A DNA stretch of 7,819 nt, taken from Naegleria gruberi (taxonomy: Eukaryota). The notes under the pieces were generated by a model. That model did no database searches. It was not told the DNA's origin and saw nothing but the letters and a program-made list of their open reading frames with translations. Shown here piece after piece: positions 11 through 7,819 of this stretch (positions are counted from its first letter, which is position 1; the number at the start of each line of letters is the position of its first letter). A program made the position numbers and the translations under genes. The DNA lies in NCBI GenBank assembly GCA_000004985.1, contig GG739101.1; one strand, given 5' to 3'.

Positions 11-1039
11 CTAGTACACCATGCCTTTGCTGCAGCTATAATATCTTTGTACAGAGCCGAACTTGTAAGTCTTATTATTAATGTGGGATTCTACAAGCCA
101 AATCAACCAGGAATTGTAGGTGTCAGGATTGACATGAACGCCATCAATTCTTTTAGTAAACGGATCGAATGATTCAGATTTACAATAGCCTAAATAATTT
201 ATAATACCACTTTCAGGAGAGAGTAAGGTTTTTTCAGAGAGAGCAATATGATACTTCACCTCCTTCCAGATCTTGGCTATGGCCTGTGCCTTCTCTTGTC
301 CTTGGAGTGTAGACAGGGTCTTGCTATGACTCTCCATCATTTCATCGTATTGTTTTCTCTTTGGTCCAGCAGGAATATTTCCAGTGGCTTCTCTGAGTTT
401 CCAATTCTTTGTTAGAGCCTCTATATCAATGATTGGTTGAGAATTAAGTTTAAGCAACATATCCTTAGAATTATTTTGGATGATTTCTAATTGATAACAA
501 AGTCTTTCCTTCATGGATTGATTAATAGGAGCATTCTTACAACTATCAATAAGAGAATTCAATTGTGTCAACATGATGATGATACATTCTACATTGTGTT
601 CTTCCATGAAAGGATTGGTCATTATTGGAGGATGGAAGCCTTGATTGAATAGTGCTGGAGGAGGTTGATTGAATGATGGATAGCAGTGTTGGAAGGAATT
701 GTTTGGTTGTTGAAGGCCTTGATTGAAATTAAGAGATGGAGTTTGATTGAGTGAAGGATAGTTGGATTGATAACTCAAATATTGATACATGGTATTTGCT
801 TGTTGCAAAAGAGAGTTCAGATCAGATGATTGAACAAGGTTATCAAAGCCTTGGTTGGCTGGTTGAGGTTGGTTGGTAGGTGGATTGAGTTGATCATTGA
901 GGTTGTGTTCTACTAGTGGTAGGGTGTTAGCCTGTTGCAAGTCTAGGTTTGAGCAGCCTAACAAGTCTAAGAATGAGTGCACATCAGATACCTCTTCAGT
1001 GGTGGCAAAGATGTCAACTTTGCCTTCTTCATATTCCAT
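11..1039 (-). CDS. Q/N-rich hypothetical protein (342 aa from the first ATG), possibly a transcription regulator; function not recognised
   Basis: The ORF track gives 11..1120, but its first codon at 1118-1120 is a GTG. The first ATG is at 1037-1039 (MEYEEGKVDIF...), sits in an A/T-rich context, and is taken as the start. The stop is TAG at 11-13. The N-terminus is acidic. The middle is Q/N/P-rich low complexity with recurring FNQG-like motifs (ANQGF, NFNQGL, SFNQPP, LFNQGF). The C-terminal ~150 aa (NWKLREATGNIPAGPKRKQYDEMMESH...SWLIWLVESHINNKTYKFGSVQRYY) are globular and non-repetitive. No homeodomain WFxNxR, zinc-cluster or canonical HMG PxNAF motif was found. Confidence 0.6.
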   Translation of the reverse strand: MEYEEGKVDIFATTEEVSDVHSFLDLLGCSNLDLQQANTLPLVEHNLNDQLNPPTNQPQPANQGFDNLVQSSDLNSLLQQANTMYQYLSYQSNYPSLNQTPSLNFNQGLQQPNNSFQHCYPSFNQPPPALFNQGFHPPIMTNPFMEEHNVECIIIMLTQLNSLIDSCKNAPINQSMKERLCYQLEIIQNNSKDMLLKLNSQPIIDIEALTKNWKLREATGNIPAGPKRKQYDEMMESHSKTLSTLQGQEKAQAIAKIWKEVKYHIALSEKTLLSPESGIINYLGYCKSESFDPFTKRIDGVHVNPDTYNSWLIWLVESHINNKTYKFGSVQRYYSCSKGMVY

Positions 1040-1319
1040 GATGATAACAATTTTAATTTTTTTGATTTCAATAAGGTACAAGTGTGTGATTTTCATGATC
1101 TTTTTAAACTCATTCAACACTACAATCTACACGCACCTAAAGCAACGATTTGGAAAACTAAAACTCTTTTGGTTGACAGGTTTTTTTTATCCAAACCATC
1201 CTACCCAGCATTCTTATTTAGTCCAAATAACACCCACCAAAGCCCACCAAAGCCTCTCACGCAATGTTTAGATGATTATTATCTAAAAATAAAAAAACAA
1301 ATTTAATTTTATTAAAAAA
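1040..1319. promoter_or_regulatory. Divergent (bidirectional) promoter region between the minus-strand gene (11..1039) and the plus-strand gene (starts 1320)
   Basis: The 280-bp spacer between two head-to-head ATGs is very AT-rich. It has an A-tract (ctaaaaataaaaaaacaaat, ~1283-1302) just upstream of the plus-strand ATG and a yeast-like AAAAAAATGG start context. It also contains a T9 run (around 1179-1192) and the tandem repeat at 1234..1253. Confidence 0.45.
1234..1253. repeat. Perfect tandem direct repeat (CCACCAAAGC)x2 within the divergent promoter, embedded in aacaCCCACCAAAGCCCACCAAAGCCtctc
   Basis: Read directly: 1234-1243 equals 1244-1253. The run aACACCCACcaaag is a C-rich island in otherwise AT-rich DNA and partly resembles Rap1-type ACACCCA cores. 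The 9-mer CACCAAAGC also occurs once more on the minus strand, at plus coordinates 4470-4478. Confidence 0.6.
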
Positions 1320-2780
1320 ATGGCCACATATGAAGAACAATTCTTGCCAAATAATGATGATTTGGTTTTAAAGAAACTAGCTTCCGACTTGTTCATCTAC
1401 ATTTCTGAAGATGTTTTAGAATTACGAAAGATTAATCCAAATATTGTATTTCTTATTGATTGGAACTCAATAATGTCTCTTCCCAAAAATTTAAAGTGGA
1501 TAGCTAGAGGACAAGAATTAGGAGCCCAAGAAAATGTTATTCTTTACATGAAATTCTCTAATAGAATTAAATATTTATGTAGAGATTTACCTGCTTGCCT
1601 ATGCAAAGAACCATATAGCAAAAAAGTATTTAATGAATTTAAAAGGATGATTCTTCATATCAAACATAATTCATCATCAATACAAGCTAATGGACGTANN
1701 NNNNNNNNNNNNNNNNNNNNNNNNNNNNNNNNNNNNNNNNNNNNNNNNNNNNNNNNNNNNNNNNNNNNNNNNNNNNNNNNNNNNNNNNNNNNNNNNNNNN
1801 NNNNNNNNNNNNNNNNNNNNNNNNNNNNNNNNNNNNNNNNNNNNNNNNNNNNNNNNNNNNNNNNNNNNNNNNNNNNNNNNNNNNNNNNNNNNNNNNNNNN
1901 NNNNNNNNNNNNNNNNNNNNNNNNNNNNNNNNNNNNNNNNNNNNNNNNNNNNNNNNNNNNNNNNNNNNNNNNNNNNNNNNNNNNNNNNNNNNNNNNNNNN
2001 NNNNNNNNNNNNNNNNNNNNNNNNNNNNNNNNNNNNNNNNNNNNNNNNNNNNNNNNNNNNNNNNNNNNNNNNNNNNNNNNNNNNNNNNNNNNNNNNNNNN
2101 NNNNNNNNNNNNNNNNNNNNNNNNNNNNNNNNNNNNNNNNNNNNNNNNNNNNNNNNNNNNNNNNNNNNNNNNNNNNNNNNNNNNNNNNNNNNNNNNNNNN
2201 NNNNNNNNNNNNNNNNNNNNNNNNNNNNNNNNNNNNNNNNNNNNNNNNNNNNNNNNNNNNNNNNNNNNNNNNNNNNNNNNNNNNNNNNNNNNNNNNNNNN
2301 NNNNNNNNNNNNNNNNNNNNNNNNNNNNNNNNNNNNNNNNNNNNNNNNNNNNNNNNNNNNNNNNNNNNNNNNNNNNNNNNNNNNNNNNNNNNNNNNNNNN
2401 NNNNNNNNNNNNNNNNNNNNNNNNNNNNNNNNNNNNNNNNNNNNNNNNNNNNNNNNNNNNNNNNNNNNNNNNNNNNNNNNNNNNNNNNNNNNNNNNNNNN
2501 NNNNNNNNNNNNNNNNNNNNNNNNNNNNNNNNNNNNNNNNNNNNNNNNNNNNNNNNNNNNNNNNNNNNNNNNNNNNNNNNNNNNNNNNNNNNNNNNNNNN
2601 NNNNNNNNNNNNNNNNNNNNNNNNNNNNNNNNNNNNNNNNNNNNNNNNNNNNNNNNNNNNNNNNNNNNNNNNNNNNNNNNNNNNNNNNNNNNNNNNNNNN
2701 NNNNNNNNNNNNNNNNNNNNNNNNNNNNNNNNNNNNNNNNNNNNNNNNNNNNNNNNNNNNNNNNNNNNNNNNGTTCTTGA
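1320..2780 (+). CDS. Hypothetical protein; only the N-terminal 126 aa are visible (MATYEEQFLPNNDDLVLKKLASDLF...IQANGR), then an N-run; the 3' end is inferred through the masked block
   Basis: The ATG at 1320 lies in the aaaaaaATGg context. The clean ORF 1320-1698 has no stops and protein-like composition. It is divergent from the gene at 11..1039. The frame runs into Ns at 1699. If the 1074-nt N-run is the true length (358 codons), the same frame ends at TGA 2778-2780. The alternative frame ends at TAA 2791-2793 (VLDAVN*). The end coordinate is therefore uncertain. Confidence 0.4.
   Translation: MATYEEQFLPNNDDLVLKKLASDLFIYISEDVLELRKINPNIVFLIDWNSIMSLPKNLKWIARGQELGAQENVILYMKFSNRIKYLCRDLPACLCKEPYSKKVFNEFKRMILHIKHNSSSIQANGRXXXXXXXXXXXXXXXXXXXXXXXXXXXXXXXXXXXXXXXXXXXXXXXXXXXXXXXXXXXXXXXXXXXXXXXXXXXXXXXXXXXXXXXXXXXXXXXXXXXXXXXXXXXXXXXXXXXXXXXXXXXXXXXXXXXXXXXXXXXXXXXXXXXXXXXXXXXXXXXXXXXXXXXXXXXXXXXXXXXXXXXXXXXXXXXXXXXXXXXXXXXXXXXXXXXXXXXXXXXXXXXXXXXXXXXXXXXXXXXXXXXXXXXXXXXXXXXXXXXXXXXXXXXXXXXXXXXXXXXXXXXXXXXXXXXXXXXXXXXXXXXXXXXXXXXXXXXXXXXXXXXXXXXXXXXXXXXXXXXXXXXXXXXXXXXXXXXXXXXS
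1699..2772. other. Run of 1074 N (assembly gap or masked sequence)
   Basis: Counted directly from the sequence. The length is not a round number and is a multiple of 3 (358 codons). The run lies inside the plus-strand ORF that starts at 1320. Confidence 0.95.
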
Positions 2781-3139
2781 TGCAGTTAATTAACAATAGA
2801 CTTTAAAAAGATTGGATCAGAATCAGCTGTTGCCAAAGCAGGACATTCAAATCAAAGAGAAGGAGTATTAGTAATTTGAACAGTGAAAGAGGTAGTAATT
2901 CTCCAATCTATCAGATAGCTTGAACTATATTAATTCTTGAGGTTGGTGTGTAGGTGTTACAACATTTGCAATCAAGAAGAACCAACTGGAACACTATTAG
3001 GATAACTTGTCAAATAACCACTATCGGCACTATCAACATCAGCAATTAATGTACCAAGATTGACACTAACAAGTATTTCTCTTCTGAGCAGGAGTAGAGT
3101 ATTATTGGATTTGTAAAAGTGCCACCAACTGTTCATGCT

Positions 3140-4679
3140 ATACATCAAGTTGAATCTTCCCTCCATGATTTGGTGAGGGAGAACCTTCTCTCTTCCATAT
3201 TGTTCAATAATAGACGTGCGATATTAAACCAACAGCAAGTCATCAACATGATATTCTTATTTGAACCAAATCTTGTTGATGCATCAACATTACCTCAATT
3301 TGTTGAGCATTAGCTACTGCATCCTTAACAAGAATCCATGGTTTAACTTCATCAAATAATTGATTACACTTCTTTAAAATCTTTGTGGCTGCAAGATTGG
3401 CAAATCTCACTTCACATCTTTCTTCATAGGCATTTCTAACTTGTTCTTGTAAATCATTGAGTAATTCAATAAGTTCTTGAGTAGTTTGATTTGGATTTTG
3501 TTCGGCATTAGGGCAATCAAATTGAAGATTTCTGTATTGAATTTCTCCCTCTTCAGCATGGAATTTCTTATTAAAAGCTCTGGTCAATAAATTTCCGAAA
3601 ATATCAGCCAATTCATTCAATAACAGGAAATCTAACGATACTGAAACTACTATCATTACTGAGTACAGCTTCACTCAATAAATAGTAACGTAACAAGTCA
3701 TGTTCAACACTAGTTTGATTCAACAAATCATATGGTGATACAACATTGCCTAAACACTTGGACATTTTGACATCATTGACAAGCCAATATGAGTGAACAA
3801 GAGCCATCAAAAGCAGGCCAGTAAATACCATGGAATTTGAGAATGTCTTTTCCAATAATTTGGACAGTTGGTGGCCAATTGAGTGATTCATTAGCGAGAG
3901 TGGAACCAGCAGTAAGATAATTTGTCAAAGCATCAAGCCAAACATAAATTGTATGTTCCGAATCATCTAGAACTGGAACCAAATAAGTAGAATCATCAAT
4001 ATCAGAATCAGTTGCCAAACTAATGGCCTCAATAATGATTGAACATTAGCACCAGAGTAACTGAAATATCAGCAGCCTTGGTTGTTGTATGAATTTGTCA
4101 AGGCCTTTGTAGAGCTATCCAAACCATCTGTCAATATAATAGTACACACACTACTTCCAGTAAAATTTGAAGAAGCAAAATTAAGATCTTTGACAACTCC
4201 AGATGCAACTATAGAACAATCAATATCTGTGACAGAGATAGATGGTGGCAGATAATTTTACCTACTATAATTCCAACTTCATCACAAATTTCTTTCTCAA
4301 TGCAGTAATATCAGTTGTTGACCAATTGATATTTCACCATAGTTATATCAGAAAAGTTCCCATCAGAAGGAATCTTTGATTAATTGATTGCTTGTATCCT
4401 AGATCATTTCTAGATATTCCTTTATCCAAAGGGGGTGGTCTTTTGTTTGGGTGGTGGTTGTTGGTCTTTGCTTTGGTGCGGGACTAGCATACAAAAGTGA
4501 CCACTCTTCAAACCATAAACCATAATTAAACTTGTTCAAATGAAGATGAGTCGACCAGTTCTTCTTCAACAATATCAAAAAGTAGTATCTTGACCACCAG
4601 CACAACTAACATAGAAAGCACCAAGTTCTTCAGCATCCAACAAATACTTGGCAGTACAGATTTCTGGCTTTAGTGTCAT
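3140..4679 (-). pseudogene. Methionyl-tRNA synthetase pseudogene of the bacterial/mitochondrial (MSM1-like) type, with multiple frameshifts, an in-frame stop and an internal insertion
   Basis: Class-I aaRS KMSKS motif, with flanking residues, as [23 protein letters not shown] at about 3745-3770 (minus strand). MetRS-specific [16 protein letters not shown] and [17 protein letters not shown] at about 3850-3950. Anticodon-domain start FLLLNELADIFGNLLTRAF at about 3560-3620. More N-terminal remnants match MetRS CP-domain motifs: FIQQP at about 4080-4100, and ...N*YYCIEKEICDE (GxIYxGxYEGWYCxxCE-like) with a TGA at 4311-4313 (minus sense) where Gly is expected. These pieces lie in three different frames (ORF-track fragments 3243..3674, 3613..3891, 3773..4018 overlap). 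At least two joins are explained by single-base indels. No intact HIGH motif is recoverable upstream. Boundaries are approximate. Confidence 0.6.
4441..4480. repeat. TG-rich (TG1-3-like) low-complexity tract ttttgtttgggtggtggttgttggtctttgctttggtgcg inside the MetRS pseudogene
   Basis: Read directly. On the minus strand it is CA-rich and would encode a PAPKQRPTTTTQTKDHP segment with no counterpart in MetRS, so it looks like an insertion or expansion. It contains CACCAAAGC (minus) at 4470-4478. Confidence 0.5.
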
Positions 4680-5107
4680 AACTCCTGACAGTTTCTTTTT
4701 TAATGGTCGACAAAATTCAATTAGTTAGTGTACAACATCTTATCAGTGGCAAGATTCAATCCACAGTTATCCTTCTTGGATGGAAGTGGGATTGGGAGAG
4801 TTTGACAGAGTAATCCACAATGAAGCTCTAATCAAACAAATAATTTAAATCATTCATCTATCATAATAGAAAATCACTCACACTGATCTAATTACATTAA
4901 TTCGAGTCAGTCAAGATGGTGTTTGGGTTCACGTTGATAGTACTAGATACAAGAACAAATATTCAATATTTGGAAGTGGATGAACATAATATTATTGTTA
5001 TTGGAGAAGTAGAGAAGGAGGAAAGTACTAATAATAAGTTATGATGGCTCATCCAAAAACACCAATAACAAATAATGGCAACAAAACGTTAGTAAACAAG
5101 GTAGTAC

Positions 5108-5125
5108 TATTCGTTGAAACGAATA
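5108..5125. repeat. Perfect hairpin / inverted repeat TATTCGTtgaaACGAATA (7-8 bp stem) at the edge of a ~110-bp GC-enriched island (about 5125-5235)
   Basis: Read directly: tattcgtt at 5108-5115 is the reverse complement of aacgaata at 5118-5125. The island that follows (ccagccttgtgtatgtggttgaaacaaacaccacaggcagagcaatgtccaatacccatg...gcacatcctggggc) is markedly more GC-rich than its flanks. It lies 3' of the large minus-strand ORF, which stops at 5301. Confidence 0.6.
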
Positions 5126-5241
5126 CGTAACCAGCCTTGTGTATGTGGTTGAAACAAACACCACAGGCAGAGCAATGTCCAATACCCATGTAAAATACCA
5201 GTACATCGCAGCACATCCTGGGGCAAAATTCTCAACCGATA

Positions 5242-5251
5242 TTTTTTTTTT
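5242..5251. repeat. T10 homopolymer (A10 on the minus strand) about 50 nt downstream of the stop of the 5301..7819 ORF
   Basis: Read directly. It sits in the AT-rich block 5236-5300 (atttaatattaaatttattatgtaataaaa) between the stop codon and the GC island. It is plausibly part of the 3' UTR / polyadenylation region of the minus-strand gene. Confidence 0.5.
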
Positions 5252-5300
5252 CGTGATTTTATTTAATATTAAATTTATTATGTAATAAAACATGATTGTC

Positions 5301-7819
5301 TTACATGTCTTCCATAATGTTAATGGCCATATCAAAAGCTTGAGTAGCAGCCTCATTATTATACGAAATAATATTTCCAGTTGAATTATTTCCGGATGGA
5401 TTGTATTGACTTAAAACAGTAATTGCAATATGATTATTGCAATTATTGTTGCAAGGAGTGGATTCAGGGTTAGAGTGAATCAATTCTTCAGAAGATACTA
5501 AGGAACATGGTGGGTATGGTTGTTTCAAAAAGTTAATATATGATTGTGTTCTCCTTTCAACAAAATGAAATTTCATATCGAAATAGTTGCACAGCATTAA
5601 CTTTTTCAATCTCGGTATCAAAAACTGAATTAACATTTGATCTTTAAATCCAGGAAACATTCGATCAAGATATGATTCTTTACCGCCATTATGAGAAGTA
5701 TGAGACATAAATTCCTTATCATCAATATGAGCACTTTCAAAACCTTGAGTTTCGTATGGCTTGATAGTTTTGTAAAATTTCAATAAATCTGGCACATGAT
5801 GAAATAAAATGTGTAAATACCAACTTTTTGGTTTCGTTGTGTATACAGTACAATACAGCTTCTCCATTTTACCCAAAAGAATGGATAATCTTTCTTGTTG
5901 ATTCTCATTTAAAGGTTGGGAAATATCAAGCAGATTTGAAATACTACGAAATAATATCAGAAGGGTGTATTGACTACCACAAATATGACCTCTTAAGCAT
6001 TTAAGGTTTTTAAATACGGATTTAACCATATTTCCAGTAAGATAGCACCTGTACATCACCCCTTTTTTGGTTTTGAGTTCACGAAGAGTGAATCTTTCCA
6101 TGTGTTCCATTTTTTTCAAAATGCTAATAACCTTTCTGTTACTACTTAATAACATTATGGAATCAATTAGTAGTCTTTCAACAACTCTCTCTTTCATATG
6201 TAATAGACAAATTATTACTTTGGAGGGAGGAATTGAAAGTATACATCCTAATTCTGTTGCTAATCTAAGTTGATGACGTCTGTCACAAATGGTTGAAAGT
6301 GTCATACAGTAAGGACACATTTGTTTGAAAAGTAATCTACTGATTTTCATTAAGGAAAGTAAATCAGTAGTAACCCAAAAATCAACTTGATAAACAACTC
6401 CATCTACTTCAACACCCTGCTCTCGCATCGTTTCAATCATGAACTTTATCCCATCAGATATTGAACGAAGCTTTTCTTCGCCACCTCTCCATCCAGCAAT
6501 TGGAAAAACATTTTCTCTTGATTTTGGATTTCCAAATGCTTTTGAATTAATTAATTGTAAAGCAAATGTCACCAATCCATCAGCCCCATCAAGATTTAAA
6601 AGATAAATGAATTTCTTTTTAAGAAGATCCAAATCTTCCTTCAAAATATAATCAGAGAGGTGTTTGTCTGCCTTAATTAACTTTACCCACCTTACATGGT
6701 ATCGAATTGTCTCTTTTACCATATGTAAAATATTTACCAAAACCATATTTTCCTCTAAACTCACTCTAATATCAAAGTCTTCAATGGTTTTGATGTTTAA
6801 AATGGAATTTGCCTTACTCAATGTAGATTTACAAACAGTGCCACATTTAGAAATTTGTGTAAAACTTCCATAATTTACGTCAGACATTTTAGACTCTAAT
6901 TTTGCATACGAATCCTTGATCATCTCCTTGGTCAAATAAAAGTCATTATTCCTTGGTTTTTTAGAAGATGATTCTACACCCGCTTCATGTCTTTCACCAT
7001 TCTTCTCAACCTCTCTCTCCTCCAATAGTTTATCATATGCTTCCTCTTCATCATTCACATCCACCCAATCATTGTCATTATCTTCAATACCATTGTCTTG
7101 ACTTTGATTGCCAATTAATTCATCTCTTTTTCGTTTCAATTGCTCATTAGAAGGTGTTTCATCATTCTCATCTTGTAACAATTCACTTTCTTTTGAATGT
7201 GTATTTTCTTGTGTTTGTACTGTTGGAGTTGATTTTGTTGAATTGATTCTTTCAATTGCAACACCATTATTGAACTCTGTAAAATCATCTGCACTATCTG
7301 ATACATCTGACACTTCCATACCAGCATTCACACTTCTGACAATTAATGGCCTTTCCTTTTCAGACTTGGTGGAATACATAGTTACGTACGGGTCTAGCTG
7401 ATGTAAAGGTTCTTTTAGGGTGGTTTGTTTGATTCTTGATAAAAGAACTTCCTTTAATGGAAAATTATTGAAAATGGAAATGAATTGGTCCTCAAAACAA
7501 TTCATAAAAAAATGTAAAAAACTTTCAAAATTCAAATAACCATGATTGAACAACAACAACTCAAACCCAAATAAAAGTTTACCCAATGAACTTTTCGAGG
7601 AACTTTTTGCTTTGACATTGTTTACAATATTAGAAATATTTTTTTGATGGTTGCTGTTAATAACTGATTTACCACAAGTAACCAAATTACATCCTTTTAC
7701 TGAACTATGTGCCATAAATTTGGCACAAGATTTGATGATTTGTTCATTTTCCAATCCAAAATGATATTTAACATCAAAAATAGCTGCATGATTACCAATA
7801 GTGCCAGTAGTTGTAATGA
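5301..7819 (-). CDS. Large hypothetical protein (more than 839 aa, 5' end outside the window) with a DDE/RNase-H-fold transposase-like core (MULE/hAT/Transib-like); a possible DNA-transposon transposase or a domesticated derivative
   Basis: The open frame runs uninterrupted from the window edge at 7819 to TAA at 5301-5303. The ORF-track Met at 7754 is a TTG, and the frame is open upstream of it. Central block: FIYLLNLDGADGLVTFALQLINSKAFGNPKSRENVFPIAGWRGGEEKLRSISDGIKFMIETM...VVYQVDFWVTTDLLSLMKISRLLFKQMCPYCMTLSTICDRRH. This reads as hhxxDGxxx (first Asp strand), then FP-hAhhW, then an acidic helix, then hhhTTD (second Asp), then CxxC about 18 aa later. That spacing is characteristic of MULE/hAT/RAG1-Transib-type transposases. 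Further Cys/His clusters (KCLRGHICGSQY, CNNNCNNH) are consistent with zinc-binding modules. An acidic low-complexity linker (DENDETPSNEQ...NDNDWVDVNDEEE) lies N-terminal of the core. The superfamily assignment is by motif pattern only. Confidence 0.5.
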   Translation of the reverse strand, partial: ITTTGTIGNHAAIFDVKYHFGLENEQIIKSCAKFMAHSSVKGCNLVTCGKSVINSNHQKNISNIVNNVKAKSSSKSSLGKLLFGFELLLFNHGYLNFESFLHFFMNCFEDQFISIFNNFPLKEVLLSRIKQTTLKEPLHQLDPYVTMYSTKSEKERPLIVRSVNAGMEVSDVSDSADDFTEFNNGVAIERINSTKSTPTVQTQENTHSKESELLQDENDETPSNEQLKRKRDELIGNQSQDNGIEDNDNDWVDVNDEEEAYDKLLEEREVEKNGERHEAGVESSSKKPRNNDFYLTKEMIKDSYAKLESKMSDVNYGSFTQISKCGTVCKSTLSKANSILNIKTIEDFDIRVSLEENMVLVNILHMVKETIRYHVRWVKLIKADKHLSDYILKEDLDLLKKKFIYLLNLDGADGLVTFALQLINSKAFGNPKSRENVFPIAGWRGGEEKLRSISDGIKFMIETMREQGVEVDGVVYQVDFWVTTDLLSLMKISRLLFKQMCPYCMTLSTICDRRHQLRLATELGCILSIPPSKVIICLLHMKERVVERLLIDSIMLLSSNRKVISILKKMEHMERFTLRELKTKKGVMYRCYLTGNMVKSVFKNLKCLRGHICGSQYTLLILFRSISNLLDISQPLNENQQERLSILLGKMEKLYCTVYTTKPKSWYLHILFHHVPDLLKFYKTIKPYETQGFESAHIDDKEFMSHTSHNGGKESYLDRMFPGFKDQMLIQFLIPRLKKLMLCNYFDMKFHFVERRTQSYINFLKQPYPPCSLVSSEELIHSNPESTPCNNNCNNHIAITVLSQYNPSGNNSTGNIISYNNEAATQAFDMAINIMEDM

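What the first reader, a model, noticed from the sequence alone, without database searches (positions are those of the whole stretch)
5301..7819. Intact DDE-transposase-like gene of more than 839 aa (MULE/hAT/Transib-type core) next to the decayed synthetase gene: active transposon or domesticated transposase?
The central domain matches the RNase-H-fold transposase layout described in the feature entry. The ORF is long and uninterrupted in a genome region where the neighbouring gene has decayed. That points either to a recently active DNA transposon or to a host-maintained (domesticated) transposase. Budding yeasts are known to have domesticated exactly such enzymes: the MULE-derived alpha3 and the hAT-derived Kat1 drive mating-type switching in Kluyveromyces lactis. 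A transposase-like gene in a compact yeast locus is therefore worth checking for a host function. No terminal inverted repeats can be assessed because the 5' end lies outside the window. The 3' flank (5040-5300) contains a hairpin and a GC island that could be a transposon terminus.
Basis: inference. Interest (0 to 1): 0.7.

Follow-up and report, generated by a model that had tools for sequence, protein, structure and literature searches.

The report
RAG1/Transib-like transposase gene in Naegleria
The long open reading frame is real and encodes a cut-and-paste DNA transposase of the same type as Transib transposases and the vertebrate RAG1 recombinase, but the DNA is from the amoeboflagellate Naegleria gruberi, not a yeast, and the gene looks like one copy of a diverged transposon family, not a proven host-adopted gene.

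Summary
On the minus strand, 5301-7817 is open for 838 sense codons plus the stop and runs off the window end (P of no stop about 3e-32). A methionyl-tRNA synthetase gene broken across three frames lies next to it.

The window is a complete 7,819-bp scaffold of Naegleria gruberi, so the yeast analogies do not apply.

The protein has no Pfam hit. An exhaustive HMMER search found 48 relatives, among them at least four other N. gruberi loci and two Willaertia magna proteins.

The family conserves D410, D485 and E694. It also conserves C501-x2-C504 and H669-x4-H674, the signature of the CACTA/Mirage/Chapaev/Transib ("CMCT") clade.

The N-terminus (about 120 aa or more) lies beyond the scaffold end. 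No terminal inverted repeats or target-site duplications could be defined, and the 3' flank is unremarkable.

A transposon-borne gene is more likely than a domesticated one: the paralogs are diverged and often fragmented, and one sublineage has two near-identical copies. This is not settled.

The parts
5301..7819 (-). Open reading frame of the RAG1/Transib-like transposase: 838 sense codons (5304-7817) plus stop TAA at 5301-5303. It is open to the scaffold end, so the N-terminus is missing.
   Evidence: 100% identical to NCBI 'predicted protein [Naegleria gruberi]' P0001 over the shared part.
7380..7763 (-). Conserved N-terminal region (ORF residues 19-146), upstream of the annotated start Met147 (7377-7379). 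It is coding, so the annotated start is an artefact of the contig end.
   Evidence: BLASTP to the N. gruberi paralog P0003: residues 19-452 align collinearly with P0003 123-512 (34% identity, E 7e-69). P0003 has about 122 more N-terminal residues. P0006 shares the LGxLLFGxELxLxNHG block.
6933..7379 (-). Acidic, low-complexity linker (residues 147-295). D+E is 20-28% of residues.
   Evidence: composition. The only Pfam match is a weak, non-significant PRCC hit.
6618..6932 (-). Pre-core helical region (residues 296-400), conserved in close relatives.
   Evidence: Predicted helices (low confidence).
5658..6617 (-). Catalytic core (residues 401-720): RNase-H-like DDE domain with an inserted zinc-binding module, RAG1/Transib type.
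6588..6590 (-). Codon of D410 (LNLD-GADG), the proposed first catalytic Asp.
   Evidence: Conserved in at least 90% of the family. It sits at the end of predicted strand 1 (low confidence). Equivalence to RAG1 D600 is inferred, not shown by a significant alignment.
6363..6365 (-). Codon of D485 (VTTD-LL), the second catalytic Asp.
   Evidence: Invariant in the family. Aligned to the RAG1 YD(708)EK Asp in HMMER sub-alignments and in hhalign.
6306..6317 (-). C501-P-Y-C504, the C(2)C zinc-ligand motif.
   Evidence: C501 is invariant and C504 is at least 90% conserved. Aligned to RAG1 C727-T-L-C730.
6198..6209 (-). C537-L-L-H540 motif, followed by K-E-R.
   Evidence: H540 is invariant; C537, L539 and R544 are at least 90% conserved. 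Role unknown. hhalign places H540 on the His of the RAG1 'ALHC'.
5796..5813 (-). H669-x4-H674, the H(4)H zinc-ligand motif (WYLHILFHHVP).
   Evidence: Both His residues are invariant. Aligned to RAG1 H937-KTLA-H942-VPE with high posterior probability.
5736..5738 (-). Codon of E694 (QGFE-S), the catalytic Glu.
   Evidence: Invariant. Aligned to the second Glu of RAG1 SEGNES (E962). The His-to-Glu spacing is 20 residues in both proteins.
5304..5657 (-). C-terminal tail (residues 721-838) containing a C-x3-C-x2-H motif at 5430-5453. The ORF ends at its own stop.
   Evidence: The same motif occurs in relatives P0050 (CRGDCIKH) and P0009 (CDGNCKHH). Relatives end at a similar distance after it.

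Best explanation
The ORF encodes the transposase of a cut-and-paste DNA transposon of the RAG1/Transib-like (CMCT-clade) type. It belongs to a diverged multi-copy family in Naegleria gruberi and its relative Willaertia.

Shown here: an intact reading frame; family-wide conservation of D410, D485 and E694, of C501-x2-C504 and of H669-x4-H674; and significant, specific profile and fold similarity to RAG1, RAG1L and the Helicoverpa zea Transib transposase.

Inferred from the biochemistry of RAG1 and HzTransib: the three acidic residues sit on an RNase-H-like fold and bind two Mg2+ ions. The Cys and His pairs hold a structural zinc that bridges the inserted helical module. The enzyme nicks at the transposon ends, makes hairpins on the flanking DNA, releases a blunt-ended element and inserts it elsewhere with a short target-site duplication.

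This copy keeps every conserved catalytic and zinc ligand, so it could still be active. Its N-terminus and both element ends are outside, or unrecognised in, this scaffold.

The exact lineage within the clade (true Transib, or a separate branch nearer CACTA/Mirage/Chapaev) is not resolved.
For: Organism and ORF.

Family: 48 representatives at E<1e-3 out of 1.84 billion. They include N. gruberi P0003+P0002, P0013 and P0025/P0053, and Willaertia magna P0004 and P0008.

Conserved residues: D186, C202, H241, Y368, H370, H375 and E395 of the core are invariant, and D111, C205 and C238 are at least 90% conserved. These are ORF residues D485, C501, H540, Y667, H669, H674, E694, D410, C504 and C537.

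Profile versus all PDB sequences: the top 16-17 hits are all RAG1, RAG1L or HzTransib. With the 20-sequence profile the best E is 7e-6. With the 49-sequence profile RAG1 scores 1.3e-8, RAG1L 4.2e-7 and HzTransib 5.9e-7 over profile positions 199-522. The next unrelated hit has E>0.5.

Pfam: RAG1 (PF12940) is the only recurring family among relatives (8 of 49, all weak). There are no MULE, hAT, Transposase_21, Plavaka or KDZ hits.

Transposon-like behaviour of the family:
- several diverged paralogs in one genome;
- two proteins at least 90% identical on different N. gruberi scaffolds;
- many fragmentary or frameshifted members;
- two 99.6% identical copies of a distant member in one metagenome;
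- Ulp1-protease and Zn2Cys6 fusions in some members;
- this copy sits on a small unplaced scaffold beside a pseudogene.
Against: The query itself has no Pfam hit. The RAG1 Pfam hits of relatives are all below the gathering score (at most 23.4 bits against 25) and cover only the H..H..E motif.

The N-terminal half of the core alone gives no significant PDB hit, so the D410=D600 equivalence is inferred.

The structure model is poor (mean pLDDT 49.9; only core residues about 235-385 are confident). The geometry of the triad could not be checked.

The PDB contains no CACTA, Mirage, Chapaev or Plavaka transposase, so PDB hits cannot separate Transib from the rest of the CMCT clade.

No TIRs or TSDs were found. 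No second near-identical copy of this particular gene is on record: its 90% cluster comes from one contig. That is also what a domesticated gene would show.
Confidence: 0.72

Rival explanations
1. Domesticated transposase. It would be a host gene derived from a RAG1/Transib-like transposon and kept by selection in Heterolobosea for a cellular function such as programmed DNA cleavage or DNA binding. It would no longer be flanked by transposon ends.
For: The frame is long and intact while the adjacent gene has decayed. All catalytic and zinc ligands are kept although the nearest relatives are only 34-54% identical, which indicates long-term constraint. No near-identical second copy of this gene is on record. 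No TIRs were found.
Against: At least four other diverged loci exist in the same genome, and one pair is at least 90% identical. Many relatives are fragments or frameshifted. This copy lies on a 7.8-kb unplaced scaffold next to a pseudogene. Constraint on catalytic residues is equally expected for an autonomous element that spreads by its own activity. Synteny and dN/dS could not be tested.
Confidence: 0.2
2. It is a CMCT-clade transposase but not a Transib. It would belong to, or branch beside, CACTA/EnSpm, Mirage, Chapaev, Plavaka, ESTA or Lanisha, and resemble RAG1/Transib only through the shared clade signature.
For: All these lineages share the C(2)C and H(3-4)H motifs (PMC12730594). ESTA was also first linked to RAG1 only through HHpred (same paper). 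Single-sequence HMMER over 1.84 billion proteins reached no canonical Transib or RAG1. Ulp1 protease fusions, seen in two relatives, are known from my own knowledge in CACTA and MULE elements.
Against: No member hits Pfam Transposase_21 (CACTA) or Plavaka even at E<10, whereas 8 of 49 touch the RAG1 model. HzTransib aligns over about 320 profile positions. The His-to-Glu spacing is identical to RAG1.
Confidence: 0.3
3. It is a MULE-, hAT- or KDZ-type transposase.
Against: No Pfam hit to MULE, hAT or KDZ models in the query or in 48 relatives. No such protein appears among the profile-versus-PDB hits, although Hermes is in the PDB. hAT, MULE, P and Kolobok share a C/DxxH signature, not C(2)C plus H(4)H (PMC9587614). 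The Hermes and P hits score clearly below RAG1/Transib and reflect the common RNase-H fold.
Confidence: 0.02
4. It is a chance ORF, an assembly artefact or a contaminant, not a Naegleria gene.
For: The scaffold is small and unplaced, contains a 1,074-bp N gap, and carries a chimeric gene model.
Against: P(no stop) is about 3e-32. GC falls from codon position 1 to position 3 (0.39, 0.31, 0.26). Homologs at E down to 1e-66 include paralogs on 382-kb and 502-kb N. gruberi scaffolds and proteins of Willaertia magna.
Confidence: 0.01

Closest known systems
Transib transposases (for example Helicoverpa zea HzTransib, PDB 6PQN/6PQR)
   Different: Sequence identity is only about 13-15%. No above-threshold Pfam RAG1/Transib hit. 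The protein is longer (more than 960 aa inferred) with an acidic linker, an unrelated N-terminal region and a C-x3-C-x2-H tail. The D-to-D spacing is 75 residues, shorter than the 108 in RAG1. The defining TIRs (CACNNTG-like) and 5-bp TSDs could not be examined. The host is a heterolobosean, a group not listed among Transib hosts in PMC9435367.
RAG1 / RAG1-like (vertebrate V(D)J recombinase, amphioxus ProtoRAG BbRAG1L)
   Different: No RAG2-like (kelch/PHD) gene in the window. No RING or nonamer-binding domain was detected. It is not a vertebrate-type domesticated recombinase and has multiple diverged paralogs.
CACTA/EnSpm, Mirage, Chapaev, Plavaka, ESTA and Lanisha (the other CMCT-clade transposons)
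   Same: [quoted passage not shown] Some relatives carry a Ulp1 protease domain.
   Different: No hit to Pfam Transposase_21 or Plavaka in any of the 49 sequences. Termini and TSD length are unknown here.
Kluyveromyces lactis alpha3 (MULE-derived) and Kat1 (hAT-derived) domesticated transposases
   Same: Only in the general sense that all are DDE transposase-derived proteins.
   Different: Different superfamilies and a different organism (Naegleria, not yeast). There is no evidence here of a host function.

Membership tests
RAG1/Transib-like transposases (CMCT clade signature) | Three conserved acidic residues (D, D, E) in the order and context of an RNase-H-like core | tested here: met
   D485 and E694 are invariant and D410 is at least 90% conserved across 20 full-core relatives. 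The predicted strand-strand-strand-helix-strand order places D410 at the end of strand 1 and D485 after strand 4 (low confidence).
RAG1/Transib-like transposases (CMCT clade signature) | [quoted passage not shown] | tested here: met
   C501-x2-C504 and H669-x4-H674 are conserved family-wide. The signature is defined in PMC12730594.
RAG1/Transib-like transposases (CMCT clade signature) | Significant sequence-profile similarity to RAG1/Transib and to nothing else | tested here: met
   Profile versus PDB: RAG1 1.3e-8, RAG1L 4.2e-7, HzTransib 5.9e-7. The next unrelated hit has E>0.5.
RAG1/Transib-like transposases (CMCT clade signature) | Match to Pfam RAG1 (PF12940) above its gathering score | tested here: not met
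   No hit for the query. The best relative scores 23.4 bits against a cut-off of 25, and only on the H..H..E motif.
RAG1/Transib-like transposases (CMCT clade signature) | RAG1/Transib fold with the triad and zinc site in catalytic geometry | tested here: inconclusive
Transib superfamily in the strict sense | Terminal inverted repeats with a CACNNTG-like heptamer, and 5-bp target-site duplications | not testable with these tools
   The 5' end lies beyond the scaffold. No second copy of this element's DNA was available. The 3' flank shows no distinctive structure. Relatives' contigs gave no convincing TIR/TSD.
RAG-like (RAGL) transposons | Adjacent RAG2-like gene (kelch propeller, with or without a PHD finger) | tested here: not met
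   The other ORFs in the window are a MetRS remnant and two ORFs with no Pfam hit; none is kelch-like. The upstream side lies outside the window.
CACTA/EnSpm (CMC) | Transposase_21 (PF02992) domain | tested here: not met
   No hit in the query or in 48 relatives at E up to 10.
MULE / hAT / KDZ | Pfam MULE (PF10551), hAT dimerisation or BED, or KDZ domains; C/DxxH signature | tested here: not met
   No such Pfam hits. The signature present here is C(2)C plus H(4)H.
Domesticated transposase | Single copy, no TIRs, conserved synteny, purifying selection across species | tested here: inconclusive
   Several diverged paralogs exist in N. gruberi, which argues against a single copy at the family level. 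This particular gene has no near-identical copy on record. Synteny, TIRs and dN/dS could not be tested.

The most novel reading that the evidence does not exclude
The Naegleria/Willaertia proteins and their unnamed environmental relatives may form a previously undescribed, deep-branching lineage of RAG1/Transib-like transposases in Heterolobosea. This would extend the RAG1-type catalytic core (DDE plus a C2H2 zinc module with RAG1-identical His-to-Glu spacing) to Discoba. It would give an outgroup for dating the origin of the Transib/RAG1 core within the CMCT clade. A bolder form of this reading is that the intact copy has been taken over by the host for programmed DNA cleavage.
Probability: 0.3. 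Interest if true: 0.55.

Novelty: new member of a known kind. Interest (0 to 1): 0.35.

Why it matters
RAG1, the enzyme that assembles vertebrate antibody genes, came from a Transib-like transposon. How old and how widespread that enzyme type is remains debated. PMC9435367 reports bacterial, fungal, plant, ctenophore and metazoan Transibs and a pelagophyte RAG-like element, with no Naegleria entry in its supplements.

An intact, unannotated RAG1/Transib-like transposase family in Naegleria and Willaertia adds a distant eukaryotic branch. It also turns several 'predicted proteins' into recognisable transposase genes and flags a chimeric gene model.

In practice this is mainly an annotation and classification result. 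Nothing here shows a new mechanism or a host function.

Tried and rejected
1. Direct Pfam and PDB sequence searches with the single protein and with three sub-segments gave nothing.

2. The word-indexed homolog search found only the protein itself.

3. The structure prediction from a 4-sequence alignment was poor (pLDDT 49.9). The AFDB fold library was not available.

4. A profile of only the N-terminal half of the core gave no significant PDB hit.

5. Attempts to find relatives with DNA context:
- Scans of metagenome, viral and prokaryote-genome contigs found nothing. The first attempt failed because the alignment lacked conserved blocks.
- The N. gruberi paralog P0002 is not in the contig index.

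6. TIR/TSD hunting:
- The window has only chance-level inverted repeats.
- On the relative's contig L001, a 13-nt CACAACACCCTTA/TAAAGGTGTTGTG pair flanks the ORF, but it has no TSD and is at the chance level for its length.
- L003 has nothing convincing.
- The L004/L005 pair shows a 99.6% repeat, but one boundary is cut by the contig end.

7. The 3' flank 5040-5300 as a terminus or hairpin: folding is no better than shuffles (z -0.06), and there is no Rfam or tRNA hit.

8. Literature searches for Transib or CMC elements in Naegleria or Heterolobosea found no report.

9. MULE, hAT and KDZ readings and the yeast mating-type analogy were rejected.
Full report
**Observation.** On the minus strand, 5301-7817 reads as 838 sense codons followed by TAA at 5301-5303. 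There is no stop upstream before the window ends. That frame has one stop, the terminal one; the other five frames have 36-97. With the local base composition, the chance of 839 stop-free codons is about 3e-32. GC falls from codon position 1 to position 3 (0.39, 0.31, 0.26), as expected for coding DNA in an AT-rich genome.

The neighbouring 'decayed synthetase' is also real. Minus-strand fragments at 3773-4018 and 3613-3891 hit the class I MetRS catalytic domain (E 5e-15 and 2e-10). Fragment 3243-3674 weakly hits the MetRS anticodon-binding domain. The three fragments lie in three different frames.

**Origin.** The translated ORF is 100% identical to an NCBI 'predicted protein [Naegleria gruberi]' whose only contig is 7,819 bp long. 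The window is therefore a whole small scaffold of the N. gruberi assembly, not yeast DNA. It contains a 1,074-bp N gap at 1699-2772.

The public gene model (P0001, 791 aa) starts at Met147 (7377-7379). At ...NIMED it splices across about 1.7 kb into the MetRS remnant. Both ends of that model look wrong.
- The N. gruberi paralog P0003 aligns collinearly with ORF residues 19-452, including 128 residues upstream of Met147. P0003 also has about 122 further N-terminal residues. The real protein therefore starts beyond the scaffold end and is probably longer than 960 aa.
- Close relatives end a similar distance after a shared C-x3-C-x2-H tail motif. The in-frame TAA at 5301-5303 is therefore the natural stop.

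**Relatives.** The protein and three sub-segments hit no Pfam family and no PDB sequence. An exhaustive phmmer search of 1.84 billion cluster representatives found 48 proteins at E<1e-3, of which 16 are below 1e-10.

The named ones are N. gruberi and Willaertia magna proteins:
- P0003 and P0002 on one 502-kb scaffold. They match ORF residues 19-452 and 500-695 and are probably one split gene.
- P0013 on a 7.6-kb scaffold.
- P0025 and P0053, at least 90% identical to each other, on 34-kb and 382-kb scaffolds.
- Willaertia P0004 and P0008.

The rest are unnamed metagenome or read-archive assemblies. Several of their 90%-identity clusters have 10-33 members. Many members are fragments. One close relative (L002, about 40-46% identical) is frameshifted between the second Asp and the CxxC motif. 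Some members carry a C-terminal Ulp1 protease or a fungal Zn2Cys6 domain.

**Conserved residues.** In an alignment of 20 full cores, D485, C501, H540, Y667, H669, H674 and E694 are invariant. D410, C504, C537, R544 and others are at least 90% conserved (numbering). This gives D...D...C-x2-C...C-x2-H...H-x4-H...E.

[quoted passage not shown] **Link to RAG1/Transib by sequence.** A profile of the 20 cores, searched against all PDB sequences, hit only RAG1 and RAG1L chains significantly (best E 7e-6). With the 49-sequence alignment the hits were:
- RAG1, E 1.3e-8;
- amphioxus RAG1L, E 4.2e-7;
- the Helicoverpa zea Transib transposase, E 5.9e-7, as one stretch covering profile positions 199-522;
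- the next unrelated protein, E>0.5.

The confident part of the RAG1 alignment runs from a helical region through Y-x-H-x4-H-VP-...-G-x-E. From my knowledge of mouse RAG1 numbering, it puts H669/H674 on H937/H942 and E694 on E962. The His-to-Glu distance is the same 20 residues in both.

Weaker sub-alignments in the same outputs put D485 on the YD(708)EK Asp and C501/C504 on C727/C730. The typed segments agree with the real sequences printed.

The first Asp is not aligned significantly. The N-terminal half of the core on its own finds nothing in the PDB, and hhalign slips by one strand there. D410=D600 therefore remains an inference. It rests on conservation, the D-G-x-x-G/D context and the predicted position at the end of strand 1.

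**Pfam on relatives.** RAG1 (PF12940) is the only family that recurs among the 49 sequences (8 members). All of these hits are below the gathering score and cover only the H..H..E motif. No member hits MULE, hAT, Transposase_21 (CACTA), Plavaka or KDZ models, even at E up to 10.

**Structure.** Only four sequences could be submitted, so the AlphaFold model is poor: mean pLDDT 49.9, with only core residues about 235-385 confident. Its secondary-structure order in the N-terminal half (three strands, a long helix, a strand pair, a helix) fits an RNase-H-like fold, with D410 after strand 1 and D485 after strand 4. This is low-confidence.

**What it is and how it probably works.** The gene encodes a RAG1/Transib-like DDE transposase. 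By analogy with RAG1 and HzTransib (established biochemistry, not tested here):
- D410, D485 and E694 would bind two Mg2+ ions.
- C501, C504, H669 and H674 would hold a structural zinc.
- The enzyme would nick the element ends, form hairpins on the flanking DNA, and reinsert the blunt-ended element with a short target-site duplication.

All ligands are intact in this copy, so it may be active or only recently inactive.

**Transposon or domesticated gene.** The following points favour a transposon family:
- several diverged paralogs in one genome;
- one near-identical pair on different scaffolds;
- frequent fragments and frameshifts;
- two 99.6% identical copies of a distant member in one metagenome;
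- accessory-domain fusions;
- the position of this copy on a small unplaced scaffold beside a pseudogene.

The following points favour domestication:
- the frame is intact;
- this particular gene has no near-identical copy on record;
- no ends were recognised.

I put transposon-borne at about 0.6-0.7 and domesticated at about 0.2. The placement within the clade (true Transib or a separate CMCT branch) is open, because the PDB holds no CACTA-type structures and I had no Repbase sequences.

**Ends of the element.** The 5' end is outside the window. The 3' flank 5040-5300 contains a small imperfect hairpin, but it folds no better than shuffled sequence (z -0.06). It has no Rfam or tRNA match. Inverted repeats in the window are at chance level. 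Relatives' contigs gave no convincing TIR/TSD. Scans of metagenome, viral and prokaryote contig collections found no further relatives.

**Novelty.** In the searchable literature I found no report of Transib or RAG1-like elements in Naegleria or Heterolobosea. PMC9435367 lists Transib-like proteins in bacteria, fungi, plants, ctenophores and other metazoans, and a RAG-like element in a pelagophyte; its supplements do not mention Naegleria or Willaertia. Repbase could not be consulted.

I therefore rate this a new, unannotated member (possibly a separate lineage) of a known kind of enzyme. It is of moderate interest for the history of the RAG1/Transib core and for Naegleria genome annotation.

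Noticed in passing
window 2970-4700 (- strand): A methionyl-tRNA synthetase pseudogene. Catalytic-domain and anticodon-binding-domain fragments lie in three different reading frames, immediately downstream of the intact transposase gene on the same strand. I did not test whether it is a decayed duplicate or a host fragment captured by the transposon.
   Followed up: partly
window 5301-7379 joined to about 3243-3575 (- strand): The public gene model (P0001, 791 aa) is a chimera. It starts at an internal Met and splices the transposase C-terminus across about 1.7 kb onto the MetRS anticodon-domain remnant (...NIMED|IAFNKKFHAEEGEIQ...).
   Followed up: yes
window 1699-2772: A 1,074-bp run of N (assembly gap). 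It interrupts a plus-strand ORF that starts at 1320 (MATYEEQFLPNND...) and has no Pfam hit.
   Followed up: no
window 11-1120 (- strand): A 369-aa ORF, rich in Q, N and P in its middle part, with no Pfam hit. Its likely start is MEYEEGKVD at about 1040. Function unknown.
   Followed up: no
window 5430-5453 (- strand), ORF residues 789-796: The C-terminal tail motif C-x3-C-x2-H (CNNNCNNH) is shared with relatives P0050 (CRGDCIKH) and P0009 (CDGNCKHH). It may be an extra metal-binding tail. At the DNA level it coincides with a 21-nt near-palindrome (5410-5430 / 5435-5455).
   Followed up: partly
L004 8999-11499 and L005 1676-4173: Two contigs from one metagenome sample share a 2.5-kb segment at 99.6% identity. 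The segment carries the C-terminal module of a distant family member, which points to a recently duplicated or mobile copy in that unknown organism. The right boundary is cut off by the contig end.
   Followed up: partly
L002 about 990-1008: The closest environmental relative (about 40-46% identical) changes frame between the second catalytic Asp and the CPYC motif, so it is called as two genes. The N. gruberi paralog P0003/P0002 is split in the same general region (ORF residues 452-500). This may be pseudogenisation, or an unrecognised short intron at a shared position.
   Followed up: no
relatives P0016, P0028, P0038: P0016 (1,290 aa) carries a C-terminal Ulp1 protease domain. P0028 (1,232 aa) carries a fungal Zn2Cys6 domain. 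P0038 is a tandem triplication of the H..H..E module, which inflates its Pfam scores.
   Followed up: partly
L003 10798-11062: A 265-bp near-perfect palindrome lies about 400 bp downstream of a compact family member (8190-10396) on a 909-kb metagenomic contig. Its relation to the element is unknown.
   Followed up: no
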